This document shows positions 1,212-22,781 of a stretch of DNA of 64,000 bases, in pieces (the stretch's first letter is position 1; every line of letters starts with the position of its first letter). Where the stretch lies: the NCBI RefSeq assembly GCF_000711695.1, contig NW_013547020.1:186001-250000 (forward strand). The letters are read 5' to 3'. The notes beneath the pieces were generated by a model. The model was given only the letters and a program-made list of their open reading frames with translations, did no database searches and was not told where the DNA came from. This DNA comes from Tilletiaria anomala UBC 951 (Eukaryota). The position numbers and the translations under genes are program-made.

Positions 1212-2961
1212 ATGCGGAGCAAGCTATCTGGCTTGCACCGCATGTCATCGACTGTATCCCCCTACTCGAGCCCTGCGTATTCCATCGAGCAGTCACCCAG
1301 CATGTCCAGCCGCGAGGAACCCGAACCTCTCGTCCTGAAGGAGCGCTTGCAGGCGACGTTCGAGCACCAAGTGTACGAGACACCCCCGGAACACCATGTA
1401 ACTGTGGCTACCCCCGAGTCTTCGTGGGTGCCGTCGATGCCGCACTGGGCACCAACGCCGGAGCACGGGAACCCTGCGCTGATCCGGACAGGCTTTCGAA
1501 ACCCTTGGGCGAGCGCGGTCAAGCCGAATGTCTGGCAGATTTGGGGTGGTCTGCAATGGGCTGATACGGTGGAAAATGAGCCTGTTAACGACCGTGACAA
1601 CACAAGACAGACAGAGGGTGCCGGCTTCCCTGATCCTGACTTGGAGATAGACGTACAGATCATCGAAGAGATCCAGTCCAGCCATGACAATTCTGCGGTA
1701 CGGGCCACCTGGCTAGGACATGCAGGCACGCTGCTCGAATTGCCAACCCCTGATGGCGACCCGGTCCGTGTGCTATTCGATCCCATCTTTTCTTCGAGGT
1801 TAGCGCGCACTCCATTGCATAAGCGAGACCTGCTCTTACATTCCTGGAACGTACAGATGCTCGCCGACGCAGTACTTTGGGCCGATGCGCATGTTTCCAT
1901 CACCAGTCACCGCTGCCGCTCTGCCGCCAATCGACTTTGTCTTAATCTCACATTCTCATTATGACCACTTAGACCTCACGACACTCGCACATATCTGGGA
2001 GCTAAACAAGGGTCACGTCCGCTTCCTTGCACCGCTGGGGAACAAGAACTGGTTTTTGCGCAGCTCCGGCATCGACGGTCTGACGGCGTCGGATGTGGAA
2101 GACTTTGATTGGTGGGACGAATGTCGTGTGTCCATTCCGTCGTCAGGGCAGGTGGGAGGGCCGGCAGAGCTTAGGATTATCTGCACGCCCGCTCAGCATG
2201 GATCAGGGAGAGTCGGTATAGATGCCAACACAACATTATGGAGCAGCTGGTACCTGAGCCTCTCGTCCGAAGTTGGCGTCTTTCGCGCCTTCTTTGCCGG
2301 TGACACTGGCTTTCAATTCCACGACCCATCACCACCATATTCAACTGCCCACAGCTCGCCACCTGCGGCAGCAGACGCTCGATCAGTCATCTACTCTGAT
2401 GCCCCACGCACCATCGCGAAACCGTCCACAAGCGCGCCAAATGCCACCCTCTATCCTTGCTGCCCCGCCTTTGCCGACATCTCTCGCAAACTCGGCGCAC
2501 CCCATCTTAGCTTGCTGCCCATATCCGTTGGCGCAACGCTGTCCTTTCTTAAATCTTACGATCCATTCCCATATGCCCTCCATGGCGGCTGGTCGCCTTT
2601 TCCGTCGGGGTTGGACGAGCGCCTCACCGCTGCGAACCACATGACGCCGAGGGATGCGGTCAGGGTATTCGATCTCATGCAGAAGCCGACCCAACCGGGT
2701 ACTAGCACAAGTGCGGCGCAGTCGGTCGCGCTAGCAATCCACTGGGGTACTTTTATCGCGGACGTGACCGAAGCTCAGCAGAGCTTGCGCAAGCTGCGCA
2801 AAGCATGCAAAGAGTGGGACATAGACTTTGCTCGCACATTGCCCGCGCAGCAGACAAAGGGAAATTCGACCGCAAAGCAGGACGATTCCAACACTGGGAA
2901 GCTGACATTTGTCGCGCTGAATGCTGGTCAGCATATCGAAATGCACTTGCGAATGGAATAG
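1212..2961 (+). CDS. N-acyl-phosphatidylethanolamine phospholipase D-like metallo-beta-lactamase (NAPE-PLD/Fmp30 family)
   Basis: GFRNPW, ATWLGHA, LFDPIFS, ISHSHYDHLD (HxHxDH), TPAQHGSGR, FFAGDTG and AIHWGTF motifs. One intron near 1799-1856. Start codon uncertain (1212 or 1242). Confidence 0.88.
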
Positions 2962-8824: not shown

Positions 8825-10518
8825 ATGACAAGCGCACCAGGCGGCATCAAGATCTTCTCCGGGTCGTCTCACCCGGAGCTCGCCAATATGATCGCAAAGA
8901 GGTACGTTCTCGAGCGTGAATGTCTGACACAAATTGCTTGTGTGCCAAGGCGGTGATGCATGACTACCGCTTCCGGTCGCTGACACTCTGACGGTCATAT
9001 CTTGCTCGTTCGTCCTATTGCATCGGCTCTCAGACTTGGCCTCCCATTGAGCAAGGCGACTGTCGCACGCAACGACTCTGGTGAATCGCTCATCCGCATC
9101 GCTGAGTCGGTCCGCGAGCACGATGTGTACATCATCAACACCTCTTGCTGCACACCGACCACAGCGCCGACGGTGACGGGCAAGTCGTTCATCTCGCCCA
9201 ACACCTCCCTCATGGAGTTGCTTATCATGATCCACGCTTGCAAGGTCGCATCGGCCAAGCGCGTCACCGCGGTCATCCCGCATTTCTTTTATGCGAGGCA
9301 GGATAAGAAGGACAAGAGCCGTGCGCCGATCAGCGCAAAGCTCGTAGCGAACATGATCGAAAAGGCTGGATGCGATCATGTCATTGTAAGCCTTCGGCAC
9401 CTCTGCTTTCTATAGAGCTTCAATCTGACCCTCCTCCCGAAATTTCTCTGCAGACCATGGACCTACACGCATCTCAAATACAGGGCTTCTTTGATGTACC
9501 CGTTGACAATGTGCGTTTGCATGCGATCATTTGCCTCTCTTCGAGATGCAAGCTGACGCGTCCGTTCCCATTTCAGCTCTACGCCGAGCCGGCAGCACTC
9601 CAATTCATCCGAGAGATGATCGACTTGGAAAAAGTCGTCATCGTCTCCCCTGACGCAGGCGGTGCGAAGAGGTGTGCATGCTTGTGTAGCTGATGTTGGC
9701 GTAAGCGACGAAGCTAGCTCGCTGACAGCATCCCATTTAAATACGCGCATTACAGAGCAACGTCCCTCGCGGACCGGCTGAACGTCGACTTTGCGCTGTT
9801 CCACAAAGAGCGCAAGAAGGCCAACGAGGTGTCGCGCATGGTGCTTGTCGGAGACGTCAAAGGCAAAGTCGCCGTCCTCGTCGACGACATGGCAGATACG
9901 TGCGGCACGCTTGAACTCGCCGCCCAACGGCTCGCCGAGTCTGGCGCCGAGCGTGTCTTTGCGATCGTTACACACGGCATTCTCTCTGGGCCTGCACTCG
10001 AGCGCATCAGAAGGTCTAGCTTGGAGAAGCTTGTCGTAACCAACACGCTGCCGCAGGCGCGCAATCGGGCCCAGTGCGACAAAATCGAAGAGATTGACAT
10101 TAGCCATGTCCTCGCCGAGACGATCCGCAGAAGTCACTACGGCGAAAGCGTCAGCGTGCTCTTCAACGAGGTGCCCTATGATACCACGCAACCCTACCGC
10201 CAGAGCCTCTCGCGGTCTGTCAGCTCGGAGAACGTCGGCAGCGGAAGTGGCGGCAGTGGAAACGGATACGGGCACGGGAACAGTGGCACGCACGGCCTCT
10301 CGACTAATCGGCAGTTCCCACGGAGCAGTTACACCACACCAGATCCACCCGAGCTTTCAAATTCCTCGGGCTTTCTGACCAACGCGACAAGCAGCGGCCG
10401 TAGCAGCACGGGCAACGCCAGTGGCCCGCTCTCCACTGCGGCGGCAACGCCGAAGTTGAGCCAGCACAGCACCCCGCCATTGCCGAGTCCACTGCGCAAC
10501 GAGACACGTGCCGAGTGA
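8825..10518 (+). CDS. PRS: Ribose-phosphate pyrophosphokinase (PRPP synthetase) with Ser/Gly/Thr-rich C-terminal tail
   Basis: [68 protein letters not shown] and [13 protein letters not shown] motifs. Confidence 0.96.
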
Positions 10519-13040: not shown

Positions 13041-13650
13041 ATGAACACCCGACCGCACAAGCAGAGCATGTCCGAGCTCAAGCTTAGGCGGCTCACCGAG
13101 CACAACATGCGGCTCAAAGAGGACCTGGATCGGCCGCGAGTAAAAGTCTCAGAAGCGAGCGCATCGTGAGTGGGCTGCGCCAATGTGCAGCGTTCTTTTC
13201 TTTCGGTCTCTATGCTTCTTAAGATTCGGTGATCCGAACGACTCGGTATGGCGGCAAGGATGCGCTACGCGGCCTGGGTTTGCTGGTCAGATGCTCCATG
13301 CTCCGTTGCAATGTTGGGCTTGGCGGAGAGGGTGAGCCTCCTCTGTAAATGACTGCCGATTGCAGAGGAGGCTAAGTGCTTCCCTTTTCTCTCGCAACTC
13401 GATAGCCTTCGAAGGCGGTCAGATTGTCACTACAGCGATATTTTCTCTGCTTTTTTACTTGCTTTTACCTTGAGCTCATTCACTGACTCCATGACTCTCG
13501 TCCTCTGCCATTCCCTGCCCCTATCACAGCCTGATTCGCTATTGCAAGACAACAAAGGACTACCTTGTCCCATCCGTCTGGGGCCCCGTCGACAAGCGGG
13601 AAGACCCGTATGCTCCGCATGGCGGCGGATGCGAGTGTGCTATCATGTGA
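13041..13650 (+). CDS. STE18: Heterotrimeric G-protein gamma subunit
   Basis: Not in the ORF track. [42 protein letters not shown], then intron 13166-13529, then [39 protein letters not shown] with a CaaX box. Confidence 0.93.
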
Positions 13651-14194
13651 TGCGAAGATGGACATCTTTTAGCCATCGCAGTGATCGGCACAGACGCATT
13701 CGCTTTTGTGGCGGGTGGCGATGCTCGAGCATACATGCTTTCAAAGGGAAGAAGCAGTCTGATATTCTCAGGACGGGCATTCGACCCATCTAGGCGACCT
13801 TCGCATGTTGCCGGTTGCGGATACAGGGTACATGGCCCCGATGCTGTATGCTCGTCCTAATCACTCGATCGCCACCATCAAGACGCCCCCTGGGAACCAC
13901 CTAGTGGCGTTGCCGCGCACTCGCAAGGCAAGGTCCGATATACCGCCTCTCCGTCCCACCGATGACCTGCATCGCAATATCGGATAATGACTCCGTCTCT
14001 CACTCTGTCTTTTCTGTTTCTGTTCCTCGCAACACACAGCATGTCATTATTAGCCATCTCTTTCACTGCAATACCAGACTGATTGACTAACCGCCGAGAA
14101 TGGGTTGCATGCGATTCGGTCGGCTTTGATATTGCTGTCTCATTACAAACAGAGTCACCCAGCAAGCGATATATCTCCGAGCAGCAGAGCATCG

Positions 14195-15358
14195 TCAATC
14201 GCTCCGCTGCCACGCGCCGCTCTTGCCGCCACTCTTGGCGATGACCTTCAGGTCTTCGATGTACATCTCGCGTCCCGCGACCGCCTTGGCCATGTCCCAG
14301 ATCGTGAGGCACGCAACGCTGACGCCCGTCAGCGCTTCCATCTCGACACCTGTCTGGCCCGTCGTGCTCGCCGTGCATTCAACGACGAGGTAACCGCCCT
14401 CGGGCTCGAGCTCCTCGTCGTCGTCAAAGGTGATGTGCACCGCGACCTTCGTCAACGCCAGCGGGTGGCACAGGGGGATCAGGTCCGACGTCCGCTTGGC
14501 GCCCATGATTCCGGCAAGCTGCGCCGTTTGTACGACAGGGCCCTTTGTAGAAGCTGGCACTGGAACAGCCGAGGATGCGTCAGATTGCTCGCTCGCCCGC
14601 AAAGCGTTCATGGCGGCGCGCGGAAGCCATACACGACCACGTGCGGTAGCAGTTCGCTTCGTGCTGGTCTTGCTGCTGATGTCGACCATGCGCACTTGAC
14701 CGCTGGCCTCATCAACGTGCGTGAAGCCTGACGCTGCGGCAAAGTCCCTCGAGGTTGAATGACTAGGCTGTGGAATGCTGCCGCGCATGGGTGGCGCGGG
14801 CTGAGCAGATGCTGTAGCATCATTTTGCGACTGCTGCTCTGCTAGCATCTGAGCGACAGCTGCTTCTAGCATTATGCGCTCAGCTTTAGCTGTGGCTGAT
14901 GATGCCATTGCATTTTGCTTACGAACTATCTGGTTGCTTTCTGCCAAGCGTGTACCGTCTGCGGTTGGTTGCGCATGGCTTGAGCTTGCGCTATCGGCGA
15001 AGGCGTCTAGATTGGCCCATGGGTTGTCTTCATCATCGCTGGCGTTGTGCCCCATGTATTCAGACCAGGTCTGCACTCGTGGCTGCTCCGTGAGCGAACC
15101 AGTGGAGGCGCGACCCCAGGTCATCTTGCTGGCAGACGCTGCGTCAGCTGCAGCGTCGAGGCGATTCCAAGGTCCTTCATCATCGGACTTCGAGGAGTAG
15201 AAACGCTGCCGTCCCAAAGTAGTGGAAAGCCTAAGCCCAAGTCGTGGTGACGCAGATCTGGCCCGGACGGCGAGAGCAAGGTTTGTCCGGTGACTCGGAA
15301 AGCTGTTGATTCTGGAAGCCCTGGAACGTTGACCGCCGCGCCCCTCAGCGAAAGCTAG
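14195..15358 (-). CDS. moaC: Cyclic pyranopterin monophosphate synthase MoaC (MOCS1B/Cnx3), in frame directly after the MoaA stop
   Basis: FTHVDEASGQVRMVDISSK, AGIMGAKRTSDLIPLCHPL, TGVEMEALTGVSVACLTIWDMAKAV and KSGGKSG motifs. The frame is open from 15358, immediately after the MoaA TGA. Confidence 0.93.
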   Translation of the reverse strand, partial: LAFAEGRGGQRSRASRINSFPSHRTNLALAVRARSASPRLGLRLSTTLGRQRFYSSKSDDEGPWNRLDAAADAASASKMTWGRASTGSLTEQPRVQTWSEYMGHNASDDEDNPWANLDAFADSASSSHAQPTADGTRLAESNQIVRKQNAMASSATAKAERIMLEAAVAQMLAEQQSQNDATASAQPAPPMRGSIPQPSHSTSRDFAAASGFTHVDEASGQVRMVDISSKTSTKRTATARGRVWLPRAAMNALRASEQSDASSAVPVPASTKGPVVQTAQLAGIMGAKRTSDLIPLCHPLALTKVAVHITFDDDEELEPEGGYLVVECTASTTGQTGVEMEALTGVSVACLTIWDMAKAVAGREMYIEDLKVIAKSGGKSGAWQRSD

Positions 15359-15361
15359 TCA
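15355..15361 (-). promoter_or_regulatory. Stop-codon readthrough motif TGA-CTAG between MoaA and MoaC
   Basis: Minus strand reads ...ATC GGC GGG TGA CTA GCT..., and the downstream frame is open into MoaC. Confidence 0.7.
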
Positions 15362-16993
15362 CCCGCCGATATGTATCATTGGTCGATTCTTCTGTTGCGC
15401 AAGCTCAGCAGGCCCTGACATACCGGCGTGCTTTGCGTGCTTCCTCCCTACTGCCGCCCCGATGACCTTGAGCAATTCTTCATCCGTCGCTTGTCCATTG
15501 GGCCCGGTCCCGCGCATGATGTCGCGTAGAGATACTTCAGCATTCCCAAAGAGACAGACCTATAGAACACAAGACAATGTCAGGAGAAGTACAGGGCGAT
15601 TTGATGGCTTCTGGTGCAAAGCTCACTTTCATGTTCCCATCAGCGGTGATGCGCAGTCGATTGCACGAGTTGCAAAAGTGGTCCGTCATGCTGAAGGCCG
15701 GTAAACACTTCAGTGACCTGGTCATGACTCAAGGAGGACGATTTCAACCTCACCTAGTAATGAACCCGACCCTTCCCTTGTAACCAGGTACGCGCCACCC
15801 TTTGCTGGTATCGTTTGCCTCGTCTTCTAAGCGTTCAAAGTCGCCGTACATTTCGCGAATGACAGCTAGTAAGTCCTGATAAGGCACCAGCTTGGACGTC
15901 TGCCATCTGTTTCCGTCGAATGGCATATACTCGATGAAGCGAACGACAACGTTGTGGTCGCGCGTGTAATCAATGAAGCTTTTGATCTCCTCCTTGCTAT
16001 CGTTGACACCTTTAAGCATGACGACGTTGATCTTGATACACTGCATACCCGCGCCAGCGCTCACCAGCTTCTGTGCAACATCGAGCGTTTTGAGCACCGC
16101 GTCGAGCCCGCCGCCGGGCCTGCGCGTCAGCAGCTCGAATTTGAACGGGTCAAAGGTGTCGAGAGAGAGGTTCAGATGCGAAAGCCCTTGGTCGACCAAG
16201 CGTGGTAGCCTTCGCGCGAGAGCCAGACCGTTCGAAGTCATTCCTATTGAGCGCAATCCCATCGATCGAAGCTCATTCAAAGATCCTATGTTCCAAATCA
16301 AAGTAAATCAGCTTATCTAAAGCTCAAGCAGTGATGCTCTGGAATGCGAAAACGCACCGATGATATCCTCGAGATCCCGCCTAATAGTCGGTTCGCCGCC
16401 AGTGAGTCTGATCTTCTCCACGCCATTTTTGACAAAGAGTGTCGCAAGTCTCTGCACCTCTTGCGCAGTCAGCAGTTCCGGGCTCGGTGTCAATGTTGCG
16501 CCATCTTCGGGCATGCAATAAATGCAGCGCAGATTGCAGCGTTCGGTTAGCGAGATGCGCAGGTAGGTGTGCTGCCGCGCGTGCCGGTCCCGCAGAAGTA
16601 GCGATGCGGTCTGAGAGGAAGTGTGTTTTGCGTCGATGGCTGAGATCTATATAGGCCGAAATATTACGGCGCGTGTGTCAGCGGATATAGGCTGAAAGCA
16701 TGCTATCAGCTCGGCCGAATGCTACCAATCCTGCTCACTCTTTCTCGCGACGCGTCTCGAGCTGATTTCCCTGCCGGGAGCTGAGAAGTCAGCGTTGCAT
16801 CCCTCGCAGCAATGGCCGTTCTTGTGTCTGTGGCGAGCCAGCGTCCTGGTGGCCCGCATTGATAACTGTTGGATTCTGCGAGTCTGCCGTATTTGGCGGA
16901 GCGACTGGCGACATAGGCACCAACGCCAAAGCCACTGTTGTTCCCGGTGCGACAAGCCAGGGTTGCAGCAGCCCTGTTTGTGCAAGCCATCAT
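15359..16993 (-). CDS. moaA: GTP 3',8-cyclase MoaA (MOCS1A/Cnx2), radical SAM, multi-exon
   Basis: [23 protein letters not shown] (CxxxCxxC), [39 protein letters not shown] and C-terminal [10 protein letters not shown]-terminus is presequence-like. Confidence 0.95.
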
Positions 16994-19745
16994 GCCACAC
17001 TGTCTGGCAGATTGAGTGGATTGAGGGTCGACTAGGATGACAGGCACGTTGAATACATGCAGTGGCATGGGATTGATAAACTGTGCGTTGATGAGAATGC
17101 GACTGGTTGCTGCGGTGTTGAACTTCATACCATATGACATTGTCCCTTCGTACCTTGACAAGGGCTTCAAGCCCTGTTCCGCTCCACTGTCCCAGGTACG
17201 ACGCATCAACCTTTGTACAGGCTGCTTCACTTGGCCTTCGTCAATGCCTGTATTGCACTCAATGGACCCCCATCCTCCCACCGTCTCCACCATCTCCACC
17301 ATCTTCTCTGGGGGAGATCTGTGCATAGGATCACAGTATATGGACACTTGGTTGACGAGGTCTAATACCGATATTGGCCAGTAAGCTATTCATTGACGTA
17401 CATGGGTATTAGTACCACTTCTGTGCCTGGTTTAACAAATTGGTTCTAGCCATTTAGCGAAACAAAGGTTCAACAGCCTGAACCCTTTCAGACATATCTG
17501 AGCATCACTTATATCAACACCTTTGACGACTTTGAGTCTTTGTTCAGCGGTAGAGTATATGCTTGTCCAAAGATACGTGTTGAGAATCAGTATCATTCAT
17601 ACACATTTCAGGCTTGTCTTTCCATTAAGGGTTCCAGGTCGTGCCACGGTGAGTGATCATCCTGAGTCGATCCTCCTCGATCCTAACAGTCTTGGTGTCA
17701 GTTGGTCTGTCGTGTCATGTGTTGCTGAAGAGCTGAATGTCAGGGGCACGCCGGGTTTGTGCGCCAACCATGGCGTATGATGTCGCCTGCCGACGTCAGT
17801 CGTCACCAGGAGCGGCAGTCGAATCATTCGGCCGTAGGGGGAAGCGCAGCAAACACAAATCGGGCTCAGCTTCCACCAAACAGCACCTTTATTTGGCATG
17901 CACAATACATTGTGTTTGGGTGTAATACCCTGCTCGCATTGCATAAATAGTAGACACACGCACCTGATCGCATTCTCTCAATGTATCTAGCACAAAGAAT
18001 TTACTGCATTCTTTGTTCATAAAGTGAATCGCACCTGATACCTCTGCTTCCGGCTTTCTATTCTCTGGAGGTCTCGACCTACCTACCCAAAAGTCAGCCA
18101 CGGTGACATATGAATCCACCAAGCCGATCTTCGCGTCATATCCCTGATCTCCTATGTATTCTGTGGTGCCATCTCCTAGAAGAAATTGGAATGTTTCTAT
18201 GATGGAAATGCTGAGGGTTCTGACCCACGGTGCCGTCGAGTCTCGCTGACATAAGTGCATCGTGCTGAAGTAGCTGTCCCCAGGAGTTTAGGAAATCACC
18301 GCCAAGCCATGCTTTGCGATGGCACAAGTACCGAGCTCTGCGACCGTAAGAAGCGATGGTTGGTCGAAGGTTTGACGAACGATAGGATAGTTGTTCGACG
18401 AACAATGCCTGCAGCTTTTGCGCCAACTTGCGCAAGTCATTCGCCTAGTCAATTTCCTCAAGCCCTCCCGTATGGACAGACTCGGGTGCGCAAGCAGGTG
18501 CGAGTTTAGGCTATTCACTGGATCGTTTTCAAAGTTGTGCAGCTTTCCGCATGCCCAATGAGAACTGGTCGTTCCCTCTCTGCGAGCGGGTTGGGGTTGA
18601 AACTCGTCGAGACTTTGGAGGGGACTGGCTGGAACCGTGCGCGCGCTTGTTCATGCTCTTGCTGCTGCTTCACCAAATTGATTAGCCTTGTTTTCCTGTT
18701 CATCAGCGTCTTCTAACTGTCGATGGTAGTCGTTTGATCGGCACCTTGCTGCCACATAAAGTTGATCAGCCCGACCTCGACAGAGGACGATTGTGCGGCT
18801 TTCTCGTTGCCATGCTCCTGCTGGATTTCTTCTAGCGTATCCGAAATTCCCCAGCATTGTGGCAGGCACAGGGTCTTCAGGTAGTACCTTGAGAGATCCA
18901 CACTGCGTCATTATTGTAGCCTGTTCTTTGTTTTTATTACGGCGCGGTAGACGCTCAGCTCGCTTCTCGAGGAAAAGGAAGCGTGCTCTTTGTCGATCTG
19001 TTGTTGCACTTTTGTGCCTTGTACATTTTCTTTTGAATCTAATTGAAGCCACTGGAGAGCAGCATGGTGGCACATGGTTGCTCGTCCAGCCCTGTCTATA
19101 ATGATACGGTCCTTACTCTTGTTCCGACATACGAAGAGGTAGGCAATCAAAGAGCACCCTGAAAGTTTATATTCATTGAAGAGTATGTAAGATTTGGTGC
19201 CTCGAATGATGCCTGAGATCGAGCCGAGGATCCTGAGTGTTGTCCCCACATTGTACAATGTGGAAGAAACAAACTTATATACCGTACAGCTGAACTCTGG
19301 ATGGACAGCGGTGAAAAGACGTGAAGCAACACTGGTGCAAAGTTGGTGCTTCGTACTTAAACACGTGGAACGGTAAGGGTTCGAAGCCCCCTGTTAAGGT
19401 ACGAAGCAACACCACCTTAGAGTACCGAAATCATACAATATGCGGGGTTGTGTCTGCTTTGATCGTGTGATCCATCTCTCGAAGATTGCGCCGGCAGAAC
19501 CCTCAAGTCTCAACATCACTCAGCGTCGCTATCTCGATTCTCATGGGCTCTTTCTGATCGTCCTTGCTTATGTGTCTTTTTTCCGACTTTTAACAATCCT
19601 AGATCGCACTGACACGATGGAATGCAGAGCAAAAATGACCTTGTCGGATCGAATCAACCCTGAGATACAAACGAACACCAATTCAGGTCCTGCAGAATCT
19701 CTCCGGGATAATAAGAAAGTTCAAACAATGAGCCCATCCTACTTT

Positions 19746-21751
19746 CTACTTCTTGCCGGGTGCTTTGAACCTCCTCAGCGCCCTCTGCCTCGCCTCAGTA
19801 TGCTCAACGATCGGCTTGGGGTATCCCAACTTATCAAACTCAGCCTTCGACATGCGGTCATAGGGCGCGTGGATTGCGTTCCCCTTGACATTCTTCAGCT
19901 CGGGCACCCAGTGCCGGATGTACGATCCATCCGGGTCGGACTTCTCGGACTGGCTGAGCGGGTTGAAGATGCGGAAGTACGGCTGCGGGTCGGTGCCGGT
20001 TGAGGCAGACCATTGCCAGCCACCCTAATGTCCAAGCAGCGAGCAGCGAAGGACCGATGCGGTCAGCACGTGGGCGCAACGATGAGCGGCAGATCTGAAG
20101 GAGCGGCGTGGGAACTCACATTGTTGCTGGCAAAGTCGCCGTCGATCAAGTTCTGCATGAACCACCTTTCGCCCTCCCTCCAATCGATCATGAGATGTTT
20201 AGTAAGAAACATGGCGGTGATCATCCTCCCGCGGTTATGCATGTATCCCTGCTTCTTGCACTGGCGCATGGCCGCATCGACGATCGGGTAGCCAGTCTTG
20301 CCCTGCTTCCACCTCTCCAAGTTTTCCCCTTCCGCGCTCTCCCAGATGACGTCCTCATACTTCAGCAGATATGCGCGGCCCATGCAGACACGTGGCCACG
20401 CGGAGAGGACGTGCGCGTAGAAGTCGCGGAAGGATATCTCCGTGTTCCACATGGCCGGGCCCGAGTCGCGGCCGACGTGCAGGCGGTTCTTTGTGATAGC
20501 CTTCGTCTGGCGCAGACACTCGCGCGCCGAGACGATGCCAGCGGCGAGGTAGGGCGAGATGTGCGATGTCCCGTTCTCGTTCATTAGATTGCGCCCAGTG
20601 CTGTAGCGAGACAGACGCGTCTCCTCTCCCTTCTTCGCGTCGGCTTCCTTGACCATGGTCCTCGGTTCGCCCGTCGCAGGCTCCTCGAACATGGATATGC
20701 CGCCTTTGCTGTAGAAGAAGTTCTGCAGCACCTTCTGTGCGGCCTCCTCTCCCGCCGGCCAGAGCTTGGCCATATACTTTTGGTCATCGGCATCGCACTC
20801 AAAGCCGCTGACGTGGTCCGGTACTTTGCTGTCGAAGAGCTTCTGCAACTTACTGTCGCTCGTGATAGCCTTTTTGTCGTTAGGTTCCGGGTCAGGATGC
20901 GCCTCGAGCATGTCCTTATGTTTCTCAATGTACGCCGTCCACGCACGATTCCAAGGCGAAAAAACACTGTATGGTCTTCCATCTTTGGTGATGACCTTTC
21001 CGGGGGGGACGACATAGGCATCGTCCACAAAGGCTGCATGTATGGTGTTCTTTGATTTCTCCGCTTTGCGGACAAGCGCTGCATCGCGCCACAACTCGTC
21101 CACCTCATATTCGATGTTGCCGCAGATGTTTGTCGCCCCCCACTCGTCTGCAAGCTGAAGCACCCTGTCCACCAGCGTCTTACGGTCCTTGTGCTCTACG
21201 ACGACAAATGGGATGTTGAAGCGCTCTTTGAAGTCCTTTTGTAGGATGCGCAAATTGCGCAGGATGAAATCCACGCGCCTCGGACTACGGTCGTGCGCCG
21301 CGTAGTCGGACGGCGAGAGCACGTGCAGAGCAATGATGTGCGCCTTGTTCTTCTGCGCGATCGACGACGCGAGGCTCAGCGCGTGATTGTCGGCGATACG
21401 GAGATCCTTGTTGCGCTGCCAGTAGATCACATTTCTGCCATTGGTCCACGTTGGCTCTAGCGTCCTAATCGAAGAGAGGGCTTTGCGAAGGTCCTCCAGT
21501 GGGGTGACGTTCTTAGGCAGCCGGGGGTTGAGCTCGTTGGCCCTGGGATGGCCCTTGCCGTATGCGGGAGCGCTCGATGTCGACTTCTTCGCGTCTCCAT
21601 CCTCTTTTTTGCTTCGCTTGCGAGCCGGATAACTAGCCTCCTCTTCATCGCTGCTGTGGTCGACGTCTGACTTGGACTTGCTCTCGGTCTTATTTTCCTT
21701 CATCGCGGTCGGTGTGGCGCGCTTTGATCCAGCTAATGCTTTCGCTGCCAT
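19746..21751 (-). CDS. PHR1: DNA photolyase (class I CPD photolyase/cryptochrome family)
   Basis: YWQRNKDLRIADNHAL, TSHISPYLAAG, WKQGKTGYPIVDAAMR, YMHNRGRM and LIDGDFASNN, then after an intron GGWQWSASTGTDPQPYFRIFNP. Confidence 0.95.
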
Positions 21752-22781
21752 GGTGACATTGGTAACTCGAGATGGGAAGAACGATCTAGGGGGTGGTGGA
21801 GGGGGCAATTGAGTCAGGGCTAAGGGCTGCAGTAGCAGAGACGATTGCGAGATGAACAGGGGGGAAAGTCGCTGTCGATCCGGCAAGGCACACCTACGCA
21901 AGAATACGTTCCAAGCGAATGCTGCCTGATATAGCATACACTGGTGCTCTTGCCCTTAGTATGTGCCGCTGGACGTGTAGGTGTCGATGGGTTGGGAAAG
22001 GGAGGAACATGCAACAGCATCGGTGACGCGATGGATTTCCACAGAAGCACGCTTCGCACGCCAAAAAGGTGTGAATGGTACACTGTGAGACGCGATTGGC
22101 ATTCGCCAGCCAGTGCTCATCCGAAGAAAGCCGTTATTGCGTTGTTGGGTCTACACAGCATGCCACACTCGCTCGCTCTCCTGCTGTGCTGCTGCGTCCA
22201 CAGGGCGGCACATCCAGGCGCACGCACATTCTGGCAGCTCCTCCTATTGAGCACTGTACCCTGCTTCGTTCGTCTTACAGTGCGGCGCTCGCAGCTTGCG
22301 ACTTGCCAGCTTCGAGTTCCCTCCCACCTATCGTGTCTTGGGTCAGCATCTGCTGCACCGAAATGACGCATGGTTGCACCGAATAACGAACTGGAGCGCG
22401 GAAAACAGCCAAGACTTTTGACCTATAGTATCAATTTGACAACACGCTGGCTGACACAAGCTCCGCTATCTCCCCCATAATGGAAAGACGTCGCAAAGGG
22501 GTCGAGGTGCAGGATGGACTTTTGATGCCAGCAGTTGAGCCATACCGGTCACAGAATGGGCTTATAACGATGAGCCTTTTGCTCATCCGCTTGTCTGCCA
22601 GCAAGAAGCTCTACGGATTCCGACGCTGCATGCGTAACAAAAACAAACTTGCCCCCTTCGTTCGTCGACTTCAGGCACTATGCAACCAGGGTGAGGATCG
22701 CCTCCGAGTCGGTTCATCATCGTATCAAGGCTTTCTTCCGTGTGTCACAAGAACTCATGAAACTTAGCTGCAACAGGCGCA

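What the first reader, a model, noticed from the sequence alone, without database searches (positions are those of the whole stretch)
14195..16993. MoaA-(TGA CTAG)-MoaC: molybdenum-cofactor genes in one reading frame, separated by a single leaky-context stop
Seen in sequence: MoaA ends ...NRPMIHIGG at TGA 15361-15359 and the next bases are CTAG. Translating codon by codon, the same frame stays open from 15358 to the MoaC stop at 14195. There is no intergenic space, and the first in-frame ATG (15124) lies ~78 codons downstream. Established knowledge: MoaA needs a free C-terminal Gly-Gly. UGA-CUA(G) is the best-characterised programmed readthrough context, used in mammals and in Ustilago maydis for C-terminally extended isoforms. 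Animal MOCS1 is bicistronic and makes its A-B fusion by splicing around the stop. Inference: ribosomal readthrough could make active MoaA (terminated) plus a minority MoaA-MoaC polyprotein that is the source of MoaC. That would be a recoding solution to the MOCS1 bicistron that also sets A:B stoichiometry.
Basis: partly seen in the sequence, partly recalled or inferred. Interest (0 to 1): 0.9.

Follow-up and report, generated by a model that had tools for sequence, protein, structure and literature searches.

The report
Leaky stop joins two Moco enzymes
In this smut-related fungus the first two molybdenum-cofactor enzymes lie in one reading frame, split by one stop codon in a known leaky context, and ribosomes likely read through it to make the second enzyme, a job done by splicing in humans and Neurospora; an unrelated animal lineage shows the same signature, which would make it a repeated, apparently unreported solution.

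Summary
Observation confirmed: MoaA ends GG-TGA-CTAG and the frame stays open into MoaC. The last MoaA exon is identical to a Tilletiaria anomala protein. This is a MOCS1/nit-7-type gene; its known members make the A-B fusion by splicing.

Readthrough is my best reading (0.55), untested. RNA contigs show spliced mRNA that keeps the stop. The bases after the stop are not intron-like, and the usual donor in the Gly codons is degraded. New here: four divergent animal loci form one clade, lack that donor, keep TGA-C (CTAG twice, CTTG, CAATCA) and keep an open frame, reaching MoaC in 3 of 4.

Main rival (0.3): rare splicing. An in-frame 69-nt GTATGT..CTAG intron exists whose acceptor is the CTAG itself, and contigs drop rare isoforms. 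No DNA from fungal close relatives was available, so conservation of CTAG there is untested. Smut proteins hint at an intron. The scan earlier noted a splice-type locus in another fungus. My paper searches found no report of readthrough here.

The parts
16739..16993 (-). MoaA exon 1; start uncertain (ATG 16993/16990; the annotated protein P0124 starts at 17140)
   Evidence: X1 contig covers from 16883
16647..16738 (-). intron 1, 92 nt, GTGAGC..TAG
   Evidence: joint in X1
16358..16646 (-). MoaA exon 2 with the radical-SAM CxxxCxxC motif
16286..16357 (-). intron 2, 72 nt, GTGCGT..TAG
   Evidence: joint in X1
15754..16285 (-). MoaA exon 3
15691..15753 (-). intron 3, 63 nt, GTGAGG..CAG
   Evidence: joint in X1
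15627..15690 (-). MoaA exon 4 with CxxC of the second cluster
15560..15626 (-). intron 4, 67 nt, GTGAGC..TAG
   Evidence: joint in X1
15362..15559 (-). last MoaA coding stretch, ending in the Gly-Gly codons (15367-15362)
   Evidence: 100% identical over 66 aa to P0124, Tilletiaria anomala
15359..15361 (-). MoaA stop codon TGA; candidate readthrough site
15355..15358 (-). CTAG: readthrough context; also a possible phase-1 splice acceptor
15355..15423 (-). candidate 69-nt in-frame intron A (GTATGT..TAG); no joint seen
15357..15362 (-). weak donor-like site GTGACT at the position of the usual stop-skipping donor; phase-2 acceptors at 15321, 15312, 15303, 15258, 15231
15197..15343 (-). linker stretch resembling a mitochondrial presequence: 49 aa, 11 R/K, 0 D/E, ending RFY before SS
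   Evidence: similar RxF/Y-H/Y-SS stretches in relatives; function inferred
15122..15124 (-). first in-frame ATG after the stop; lies downstream of the presequence-like stretch
14225..14689 (-). MoaC domain (PF01967, E 4e-45)
14195..14197 (-). MoaC stop codon TGA

Best explanation
The gene yields a spliced mRNA that keeps MoaA, a TGA-CTAG stop and an in-frame linker plus MoaC; most ribosomes would stop and release active MoaA with its Gly-Gly end, while a minority likely read through and make a MoaA-linker-MoaC precursor that is predicted to be cut in mitochondria to free MoaC. Shown: the anatomy, the four introns, and the stop-keeping mRNA. From the literature: the leaky motif in U. maydis, the need for a free Gly-Gly, and the need for an A-B precursor that is cleaved. 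Inferred: readthrough at this site, its level, import, cleavage near RFY-SS, and that readthrough replaced the ancestral stop-skipping intron here and, independently, in an animal clade.
For: (1) UGA plus CU(A) is sufficient for readthrough in U. maydis, and G at +4 is common (PMC4207609 passages). TGACTAG follows 3 of 2150 window TGAs. (2) One X1 contig carries all four splice joints and runs 61 nt past candidate donor A to 15362; another (15391-15302) carries the stop and CTAG unspliced. (3) The usual route starts in the Gly codons: 81 of 96 annotated fusions read IG-x or IGG-x, and 31 of 35 eukaryote-like loci with MoaC downstream have GT there. Here that site is GTGACT, without the +5 G that 4 of 4 confirmed introns have, and its only CTRA-like branch site lies about 17 nt after the donor. 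(4) The first 50 nt after the stop are 22% T and 62% GC. The 31 closed-frame loci average 36% T, with 30 of 31 at 28% or more; the gene's own introns are 26-36% T. (5) L003, L095, L102 and L113 form one clade (99/96; within animals). Third codon positions are 38-54% identical, yet all four read GG(A/G)-GGA-TGA-C with no GT in the Gly codons and an open frame; 3 of 4 reach MoaC in frame within the DNA held. Only 2 of 31 closed-frame loci have +4 C. (6) In Neurospora, B alone from the internal Met neither complements nor enters mitochondria, so a fusion precursor is needed (PMC7232280).
Against: No ribosome, reporter or peptide data. A good donor (GTATGT) 69 nt upstream is in phase with the CTAG, so CTAG and the open frame are also explained as an acceptor and exon; only 5 of 52 compared loci write that Gly as GGT. 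Contigs drop rare isoforms, and only one run was available. None of the 117 loci was recognisable as Ustilaginomycotina. U. trichophora fusions are annotated IGG-PAKRS, and P0235 has a pyrimidine-rich, intron-like stretch before the linker, so smuts probably splice. No Moco gene is among 66 U. maydis TGA-CT genes (it would be missing if annotated as a fusion). The four animal loci are one event, not four, so the Fisher values (0.006, 0.002) overstate the case; they look like transcripts, so exon skipping is not excluded there. No RNA structure follows the stop (z +1.37), and a codon model was inconclusive.
Confidence: 0.55

Rival explanations
1. Rare alternative splicing removes the stop, as in Neurospora nit-7 and human MOCS1. 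Either intron A (15423-15355, 69 nt, with CTAG as acceptor) or the weak GTGACT donor to a phase-2 acceptor (42, 51 or 60 nt) gives the fusion; CTAG would then be a splice site, and any readthrough incidental.
For: This is the published mechanism in fungi and animals. Intron A has a consensus donor, is 69 nt (the gene's introns are 63-92 nt) and is in frame. Two annotated fusions break at HAG (P0069, P0238). 31 of 35 compared loci have the Gly-codon donor. An earlier scan note read another fungal locus this way.
Against: Intron A has no CTRA branch site near its end (ATGAT at -22, GTGAC at -5) and is 20% T, though it is under coding constraint. The B candidates are 60-65% GC with a degraded donor. 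An acceptor sitting exactly at +1 to +4 and spelling the best-known leaky motif would be a coincidence. Spliced mRNA that keeps both donors is present, whereas human fusions are 59% of transcripts.
Confidence: 0.3
2. MoaC is made separately from ATG 15124, by an internal promoter, re-initiation or leaky scanning.
For: A 309-aa ORF exists. The downstream contig has a higher mean depth, 137 against 109; this is a poor measure and may be 3-prime bias.
Against: This start omits the presequence-like stretch. The equivalent Neurospora NIT-7B stays outside mitochondria and does not complement. It does not explain CTAG.
Confidence: 0.08
3. A share of transcripts has the first base of the stop changed (RNA editing or a second allele), which opens the frame.
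For: An X1 contig of depth 38.7, beside 77.1 for the reference path, differs by one letter; from the contig ends the place is 15361.
Against: Further variants fall at 15340, 15332 and 15326 in low-depth combinations, at both T and C, each after G. CGGCGGGT and GCGGCGGT, the contexts of 15361 and 15332, are top Illumina error motifs with 23-27% forward error (PMC3622629 tables). The letters were not shown.
Confidence: 0.04

Closest known systems
Neurospora crassa nit-7 (NIT-7A / NIT-7AB)
   Same: One fungal locus with MoaA ending Gly-Gly, a linker and MoaC; terminated A plus an A-B precursor cleaved in mitochondria (PMC7232280; passages and Results section read).
   Different: There the stop lies in a 237-nt intron that is spliced out. 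Here the frame is open after the stop, the Gly-codon donor is degraded, the context is TGA-CTAG, and no junction was seen in the one run.
Human MOCS1 (types I-III)
   Same: Type I mRNA keeps the stop between A and B; the linker carries an internal mitochondrial signal and cleavage site (bioRxiv 10.1101/429183, passages).
   Different: The fusion comes from an alternative donor or exon 9 skipping (59% of transcripts), and type I is stated to give A only.
UGA CU(A/G) readthrough in Ustilago maydis (tpi1, art1, rpe1) and mammals (MDH1, LDHB)
   Same: Same short context, and the same fungal subphylum for the U. maydis cases (PMC4207609; passages and supplement table S1).
   Different: Those cases add a short peroxisomal tag. 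Here 387 codons holding a whole second enzyme would be added.
Unnamed animal clade L003, L095, L102, L113 (found here)
   Same: GG-TGA-C context, open frame into MoaC, no usable Gly-codon donor.
   Different: An animal lineage grouping loosely with crustacean rows (support 82); genomic exon structure unknown; equally untested.

Membership tests
MOCS1/nit-7 bicistronic MoaA-MoaC gene | MoaA radical-SAM domain ending in Gly-Gly-stop | tested here: met
MOCS1/nit-7 bicistronic MoaA-MoaC gene | MoaC downstream on the same strand behind a linker | tested here: met
MOCS1/nit-7 bicistronic MoaA-MoaC gene | mature mRNA that keeps the MoaA stop | tested here: met
   (overlapping contigs of one run; a single transcript is not shown)
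MOCS1/nit-7 bicistronic MoaA-MoaC gene | stop-skipping splice form giving A-B | tested here: inconclusive
   no joint in X1 contigs, which drop rare forms; candidate introns exist
MOCS1/nit-7 bicistronic MoaA-MoaC gene | mitochondrial import and cleavage that frees B | not testable with these tools
   linker composition fits
Programmed UGA-CUA(G) readthrough | UGA followed by CU(A)(G) | tested here: met
Programmed UGA-CUA(G) readthrough | open in-frame extension with a function | tested here: met
Programmed UGA-CUA(G) readthrough | context conserved in close orthologues | tested here: inconclusive
   none of 117 loci recognisable as Ustilaginomycotina; no fungal hit; conserved in an unrelated animal clade
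Programmed UGA-CUA(G) readthrough | readthrough measured by reporter, footprints or peptide | not testable with these tools
   no such data

The most novel reading that the evidence does not exclude
Stop-codon readthrough has replaced alternative splicing as the way to make the MoaA-MoaC precursor at least twice, in this fungus and in an animal clade that lost the splice donor. A leaky stop would then be the only source of an essential second enzyme and would set the A:B ratio.
Probability: 0.45. Interest if true: 0.78.

Novelty: new variant of a known kind. Interest (0 to 1): 0.62.

Why it matters
Known cellular UGA-CUA readthrough mostly appends short tags. Here it would deliver a whole enzyme that the pathway needs, while termination supplies the free Gly-Gly of the first enzyme. 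It would add a translational route to the splice routes known for MOCS1, show convergent switching between splicing and recoding at one gene, and predict that Moco supply depends on termination fidelity. It also flags an annotation trap: the annotated T. anomala protein is MoaA only, and smut fusions are joined at different places in different genomes.

Tried and rejected
No whole genome is held. The run search listed 1 run, not on record as RNA; its four GT-AG joints show it holds spliced RNA. No joint across the stop was listed in either lay, and contigs are unbroken at 15423, 15355 and the later acceptors. Contigs show presence, not absence; intron-keeping forms of the four real introns also left no trace in the depth table, so rare forms are lost. 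No cover at 16884-17243 is no evidence on the start. The contig branches at the stop first looked like a splice or an edit; I read them as context-specific sequencing errors.

Fungal DNA was not obtained from genome contigs (2 unrelated bacterial hits) or viral contigs (2 hits, MoaA ends with TAA). The short loci could not be extended. L001 (TGA CTAC, open 132 codons) was set aside: no MoaC follows and it falls outside the eukaryote rows. Of 97 groups, 53 showed no MoaC in the DNA held and 9 were dropped as prokaryote-like before the count of 35: 6 by the tree, 3 (L041, L054, L061) by my judgement. L095 is outside the 35. Unsupervised donor enrichment was weak. The codon model, RNA fold, Atlas and representative search added nothing decisive. 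Gray and Nicholls 2000 and Mayr 2020 JBC were not held and are known only through citing papers.

Full report
Observation. On the minus strand MoaA ends NRPMIHIGG at TGA 15361-15359, followed by CTAG, and the frame is open for 387 codons to TGA 14197-14195; the first in-frame ATG, 15124, follows 78 open codons. The last MoaA exon is 100% identical over 66 aa to P0124, a 495-aa Tilletiaria anomala protein annotated as MoaA only. The downstream frame holds MoaC at residues 224-378. Run X1 shows four GT-AG joints upstream, so the gene is transcribed and spliced. TGACTAG follows 3 of 2150 TGA trimers in the window, while 78 open codons alone have a chance of about 0.10.

What is known. In Neurospora the stop lies in an intron: retention gives NIT-7A, splicing gives NIT-7AB, both are needed, B alone from its own Met neither complements nor enters mitochondria, and AB is cleaved after import (PMC7232280; passages and the Results section). 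In humans, type II and III splice forms are 4% and 55% of transcripts, the double glycine is essential, and the linker carries an import signal and cleavage site (bioRxiv 10.1101/429183; passages). Type II lacks 15 nt and is in frame, so I infer that human type I mRNA also has A and B in one frame. In U. maydis, UGA plus CU is sufficient for readthrough, and A at +3 and G at +4 are favoured in mammals (PMC4207609; passages). Its table S1 lists 66 genes ending TGA CT, 4 with CTA, none annotated as a Moco gene (supplement file 4, part 1 of 2; term search).

Splice options here. Candidate A runs from GTATGT at 15423, inside HAG-M, to the CTAG: 69 nt, in frame. Its donor is good, but it has no CTRA branch site near the end and is 20% T. 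Candidate B starts at GTGACT 15362 and could use phase-2 acceptors 42, 51, 60, 105 or 132 nt away; it lacks the +5 G found in 4 of 4 confirmed introns, is 60-65% GC, and its only CTGA site lies about 17 nt after the donor. The Gly-codon donor is the usual route: of 96 annotated fusions with the NRPM motif, 28 read IGG-x, 53 IG-x and 15 I-x. These annotations are mostly predictions, and those of smuts disagree with each other.

RNA evidence. One X1 contig (depth 109) carries all four joints and continues through 15423 to 15362; another (15391-15302, depth 77) carries the stop and CTAG; a third (depth 137) runs from 15325 to 14095. So fully spliced mRNA that keeps both candidate donors exists. 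No joint across the stop was listed, but Logan contigs are simplified graphs (PMC12424806; passages) and cannot exclude a rare form. The breaks near the stop are substitution variants, placed from contig ends at 15361, 15340, 15332 and 15326. Two of the contexts, CGGCGGGT and GCGGCGGT, are among the strongest Illumina error motifs (PMC3622629; tables 4 and 5 in passages), so I treat them as artefacts; the letters were not shown.

Comparison. Of these, 44 showed MoaC downstream, and 35 remained after dropping 9 prokaryote-like groups. 31 of 35 have GT in the Gly codons, and 31 of 35 have a closed frame, with a T-rich stretch after the stop (mean 36% T; the window has 22%). Four are open in frame: L013, an agaric-like locus with a donor, and L003, L102 and L113, which have no donor and read TGA-CTAG, TGA-CTAG and TGA-CAATCA. 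L095 reads TGA-CTTG, has no donor and is open for all 100 codons held. That CAATCA fits a viral CARYYA readthrough motif is recalled, not from a call. These four loci form one clade (99/96; 96, inside the animal rows), with third positions only 38-54% identical. L003 holds complete MoaA and MoaC domains in one frame. This is one evolutionary event, the loci look like transcripts, and exon skipping is not excluded. Still, loss of the donor together with a kept leaky context is what a switch to readthrough predicts, and the window shows the same combination in a fungus.

Limits. P0235, close to the smut proteins, has a Leu-Thr then pyrimidine-rich stretch just before the linker, which suggests an ordinary intron there (inferred from protein letters). 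The pattern forced TGA, so stop identity could not be compared. No RNA structure follows the stop, and a codon model did not separate exon from intron.

Mechanism. Most likely, termination gives active MoaA and a minority readthrough gives the precursor. Residues 6-54 after the stop (11 R/K, no D/E, ending RFY-SS) resemble a mitochondrial presequence (family knowledge, not a predictor run) and would allow cleavage that frees MoaC. ATG 15124 lies behind this stretch, which argues against separate initiation. Odds: readthrough 0.55, rare splicing 0.30, separate initiation 0.08, edited or allelic stop 0.04. Readthrough and rare splicing could both operate.

Novelty. Searches for MOCS1 with readthrough and bicistronic or stop codon readthrough returned only the FlyBase annotation paper, where the MOCS1 hits lie in a reference title (PMC4528330; passages). 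Searches for readthrough with MoaA, MoaC and fungi or with molybdenum cofactor and copepod returned none. One search listed 20 of 34 papers, seen as listings and abstract starts; only the FlyBase paper contained read-through. Subscription journals are largely missing, and Gray and Nicholls 2000 and Probst 2014 were not read. One earlier scan note describes a splice-type locus in another fungus. Verdict: a known gene type with a likely new way of making its second enzyme; interest 0.62.

Noticed in passing
L003, L095, L102, L113: One animal clade with donor-less GG-TGA-C contexts and open frames toward MoaC; candidate conserved MOCS1 readthrough that deserves its own study. The lineage is not named.
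   Followed up: partly
L003:about 1340-1520 (minus strand): The linker after the stop holds about three near-identical 13-residue repeats (KGISAPFKGP.AD-like), all in frame.
   Followed up: no
window 15326-15361: Cluster of substitution variants in X1 contigs, one at the first base of the stop in about a third of the summed depth; contexts match known Illumina error motifs.
   Followed up: partly
window 16884-17243: MoaA has no Met between 16990 and the first cysteine motif, and the annotated start (17140) lies outside the covered stretch; the true start and N-terminal targeting signal are unresolved.
   Followed up: no
window 15040-15180 and P0004-P0048: Ustilaginomycotina-like MoaC linkers share a repeated acidic motif (DD.PW..LD), with no Pfam match in the window protein.
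   Followed up: no
L120, L121: A contig of the viral collection carries two MoaA C-terminal copies about 2.6 kb apart, both ending in TAA, one truncated at its start.
   Followed up: no
L071: Eukaryote-like locus with MoaC downstream, a closed frame (TGA TGA) and no GT in the Gly codons; its fusion route is unexplained.
   Followed up: no
window 13530-14063 and 17320-17800: Separate X1 contigs flank the gene on both sides (depth 407 and 71); nearest Pfam hits among the ORFs scanned are a PRPP synthetase piece (9838-10515) and a photolyase (20066-21937), so no Moco or nitrate cluster was seen.
   Followed up: partly
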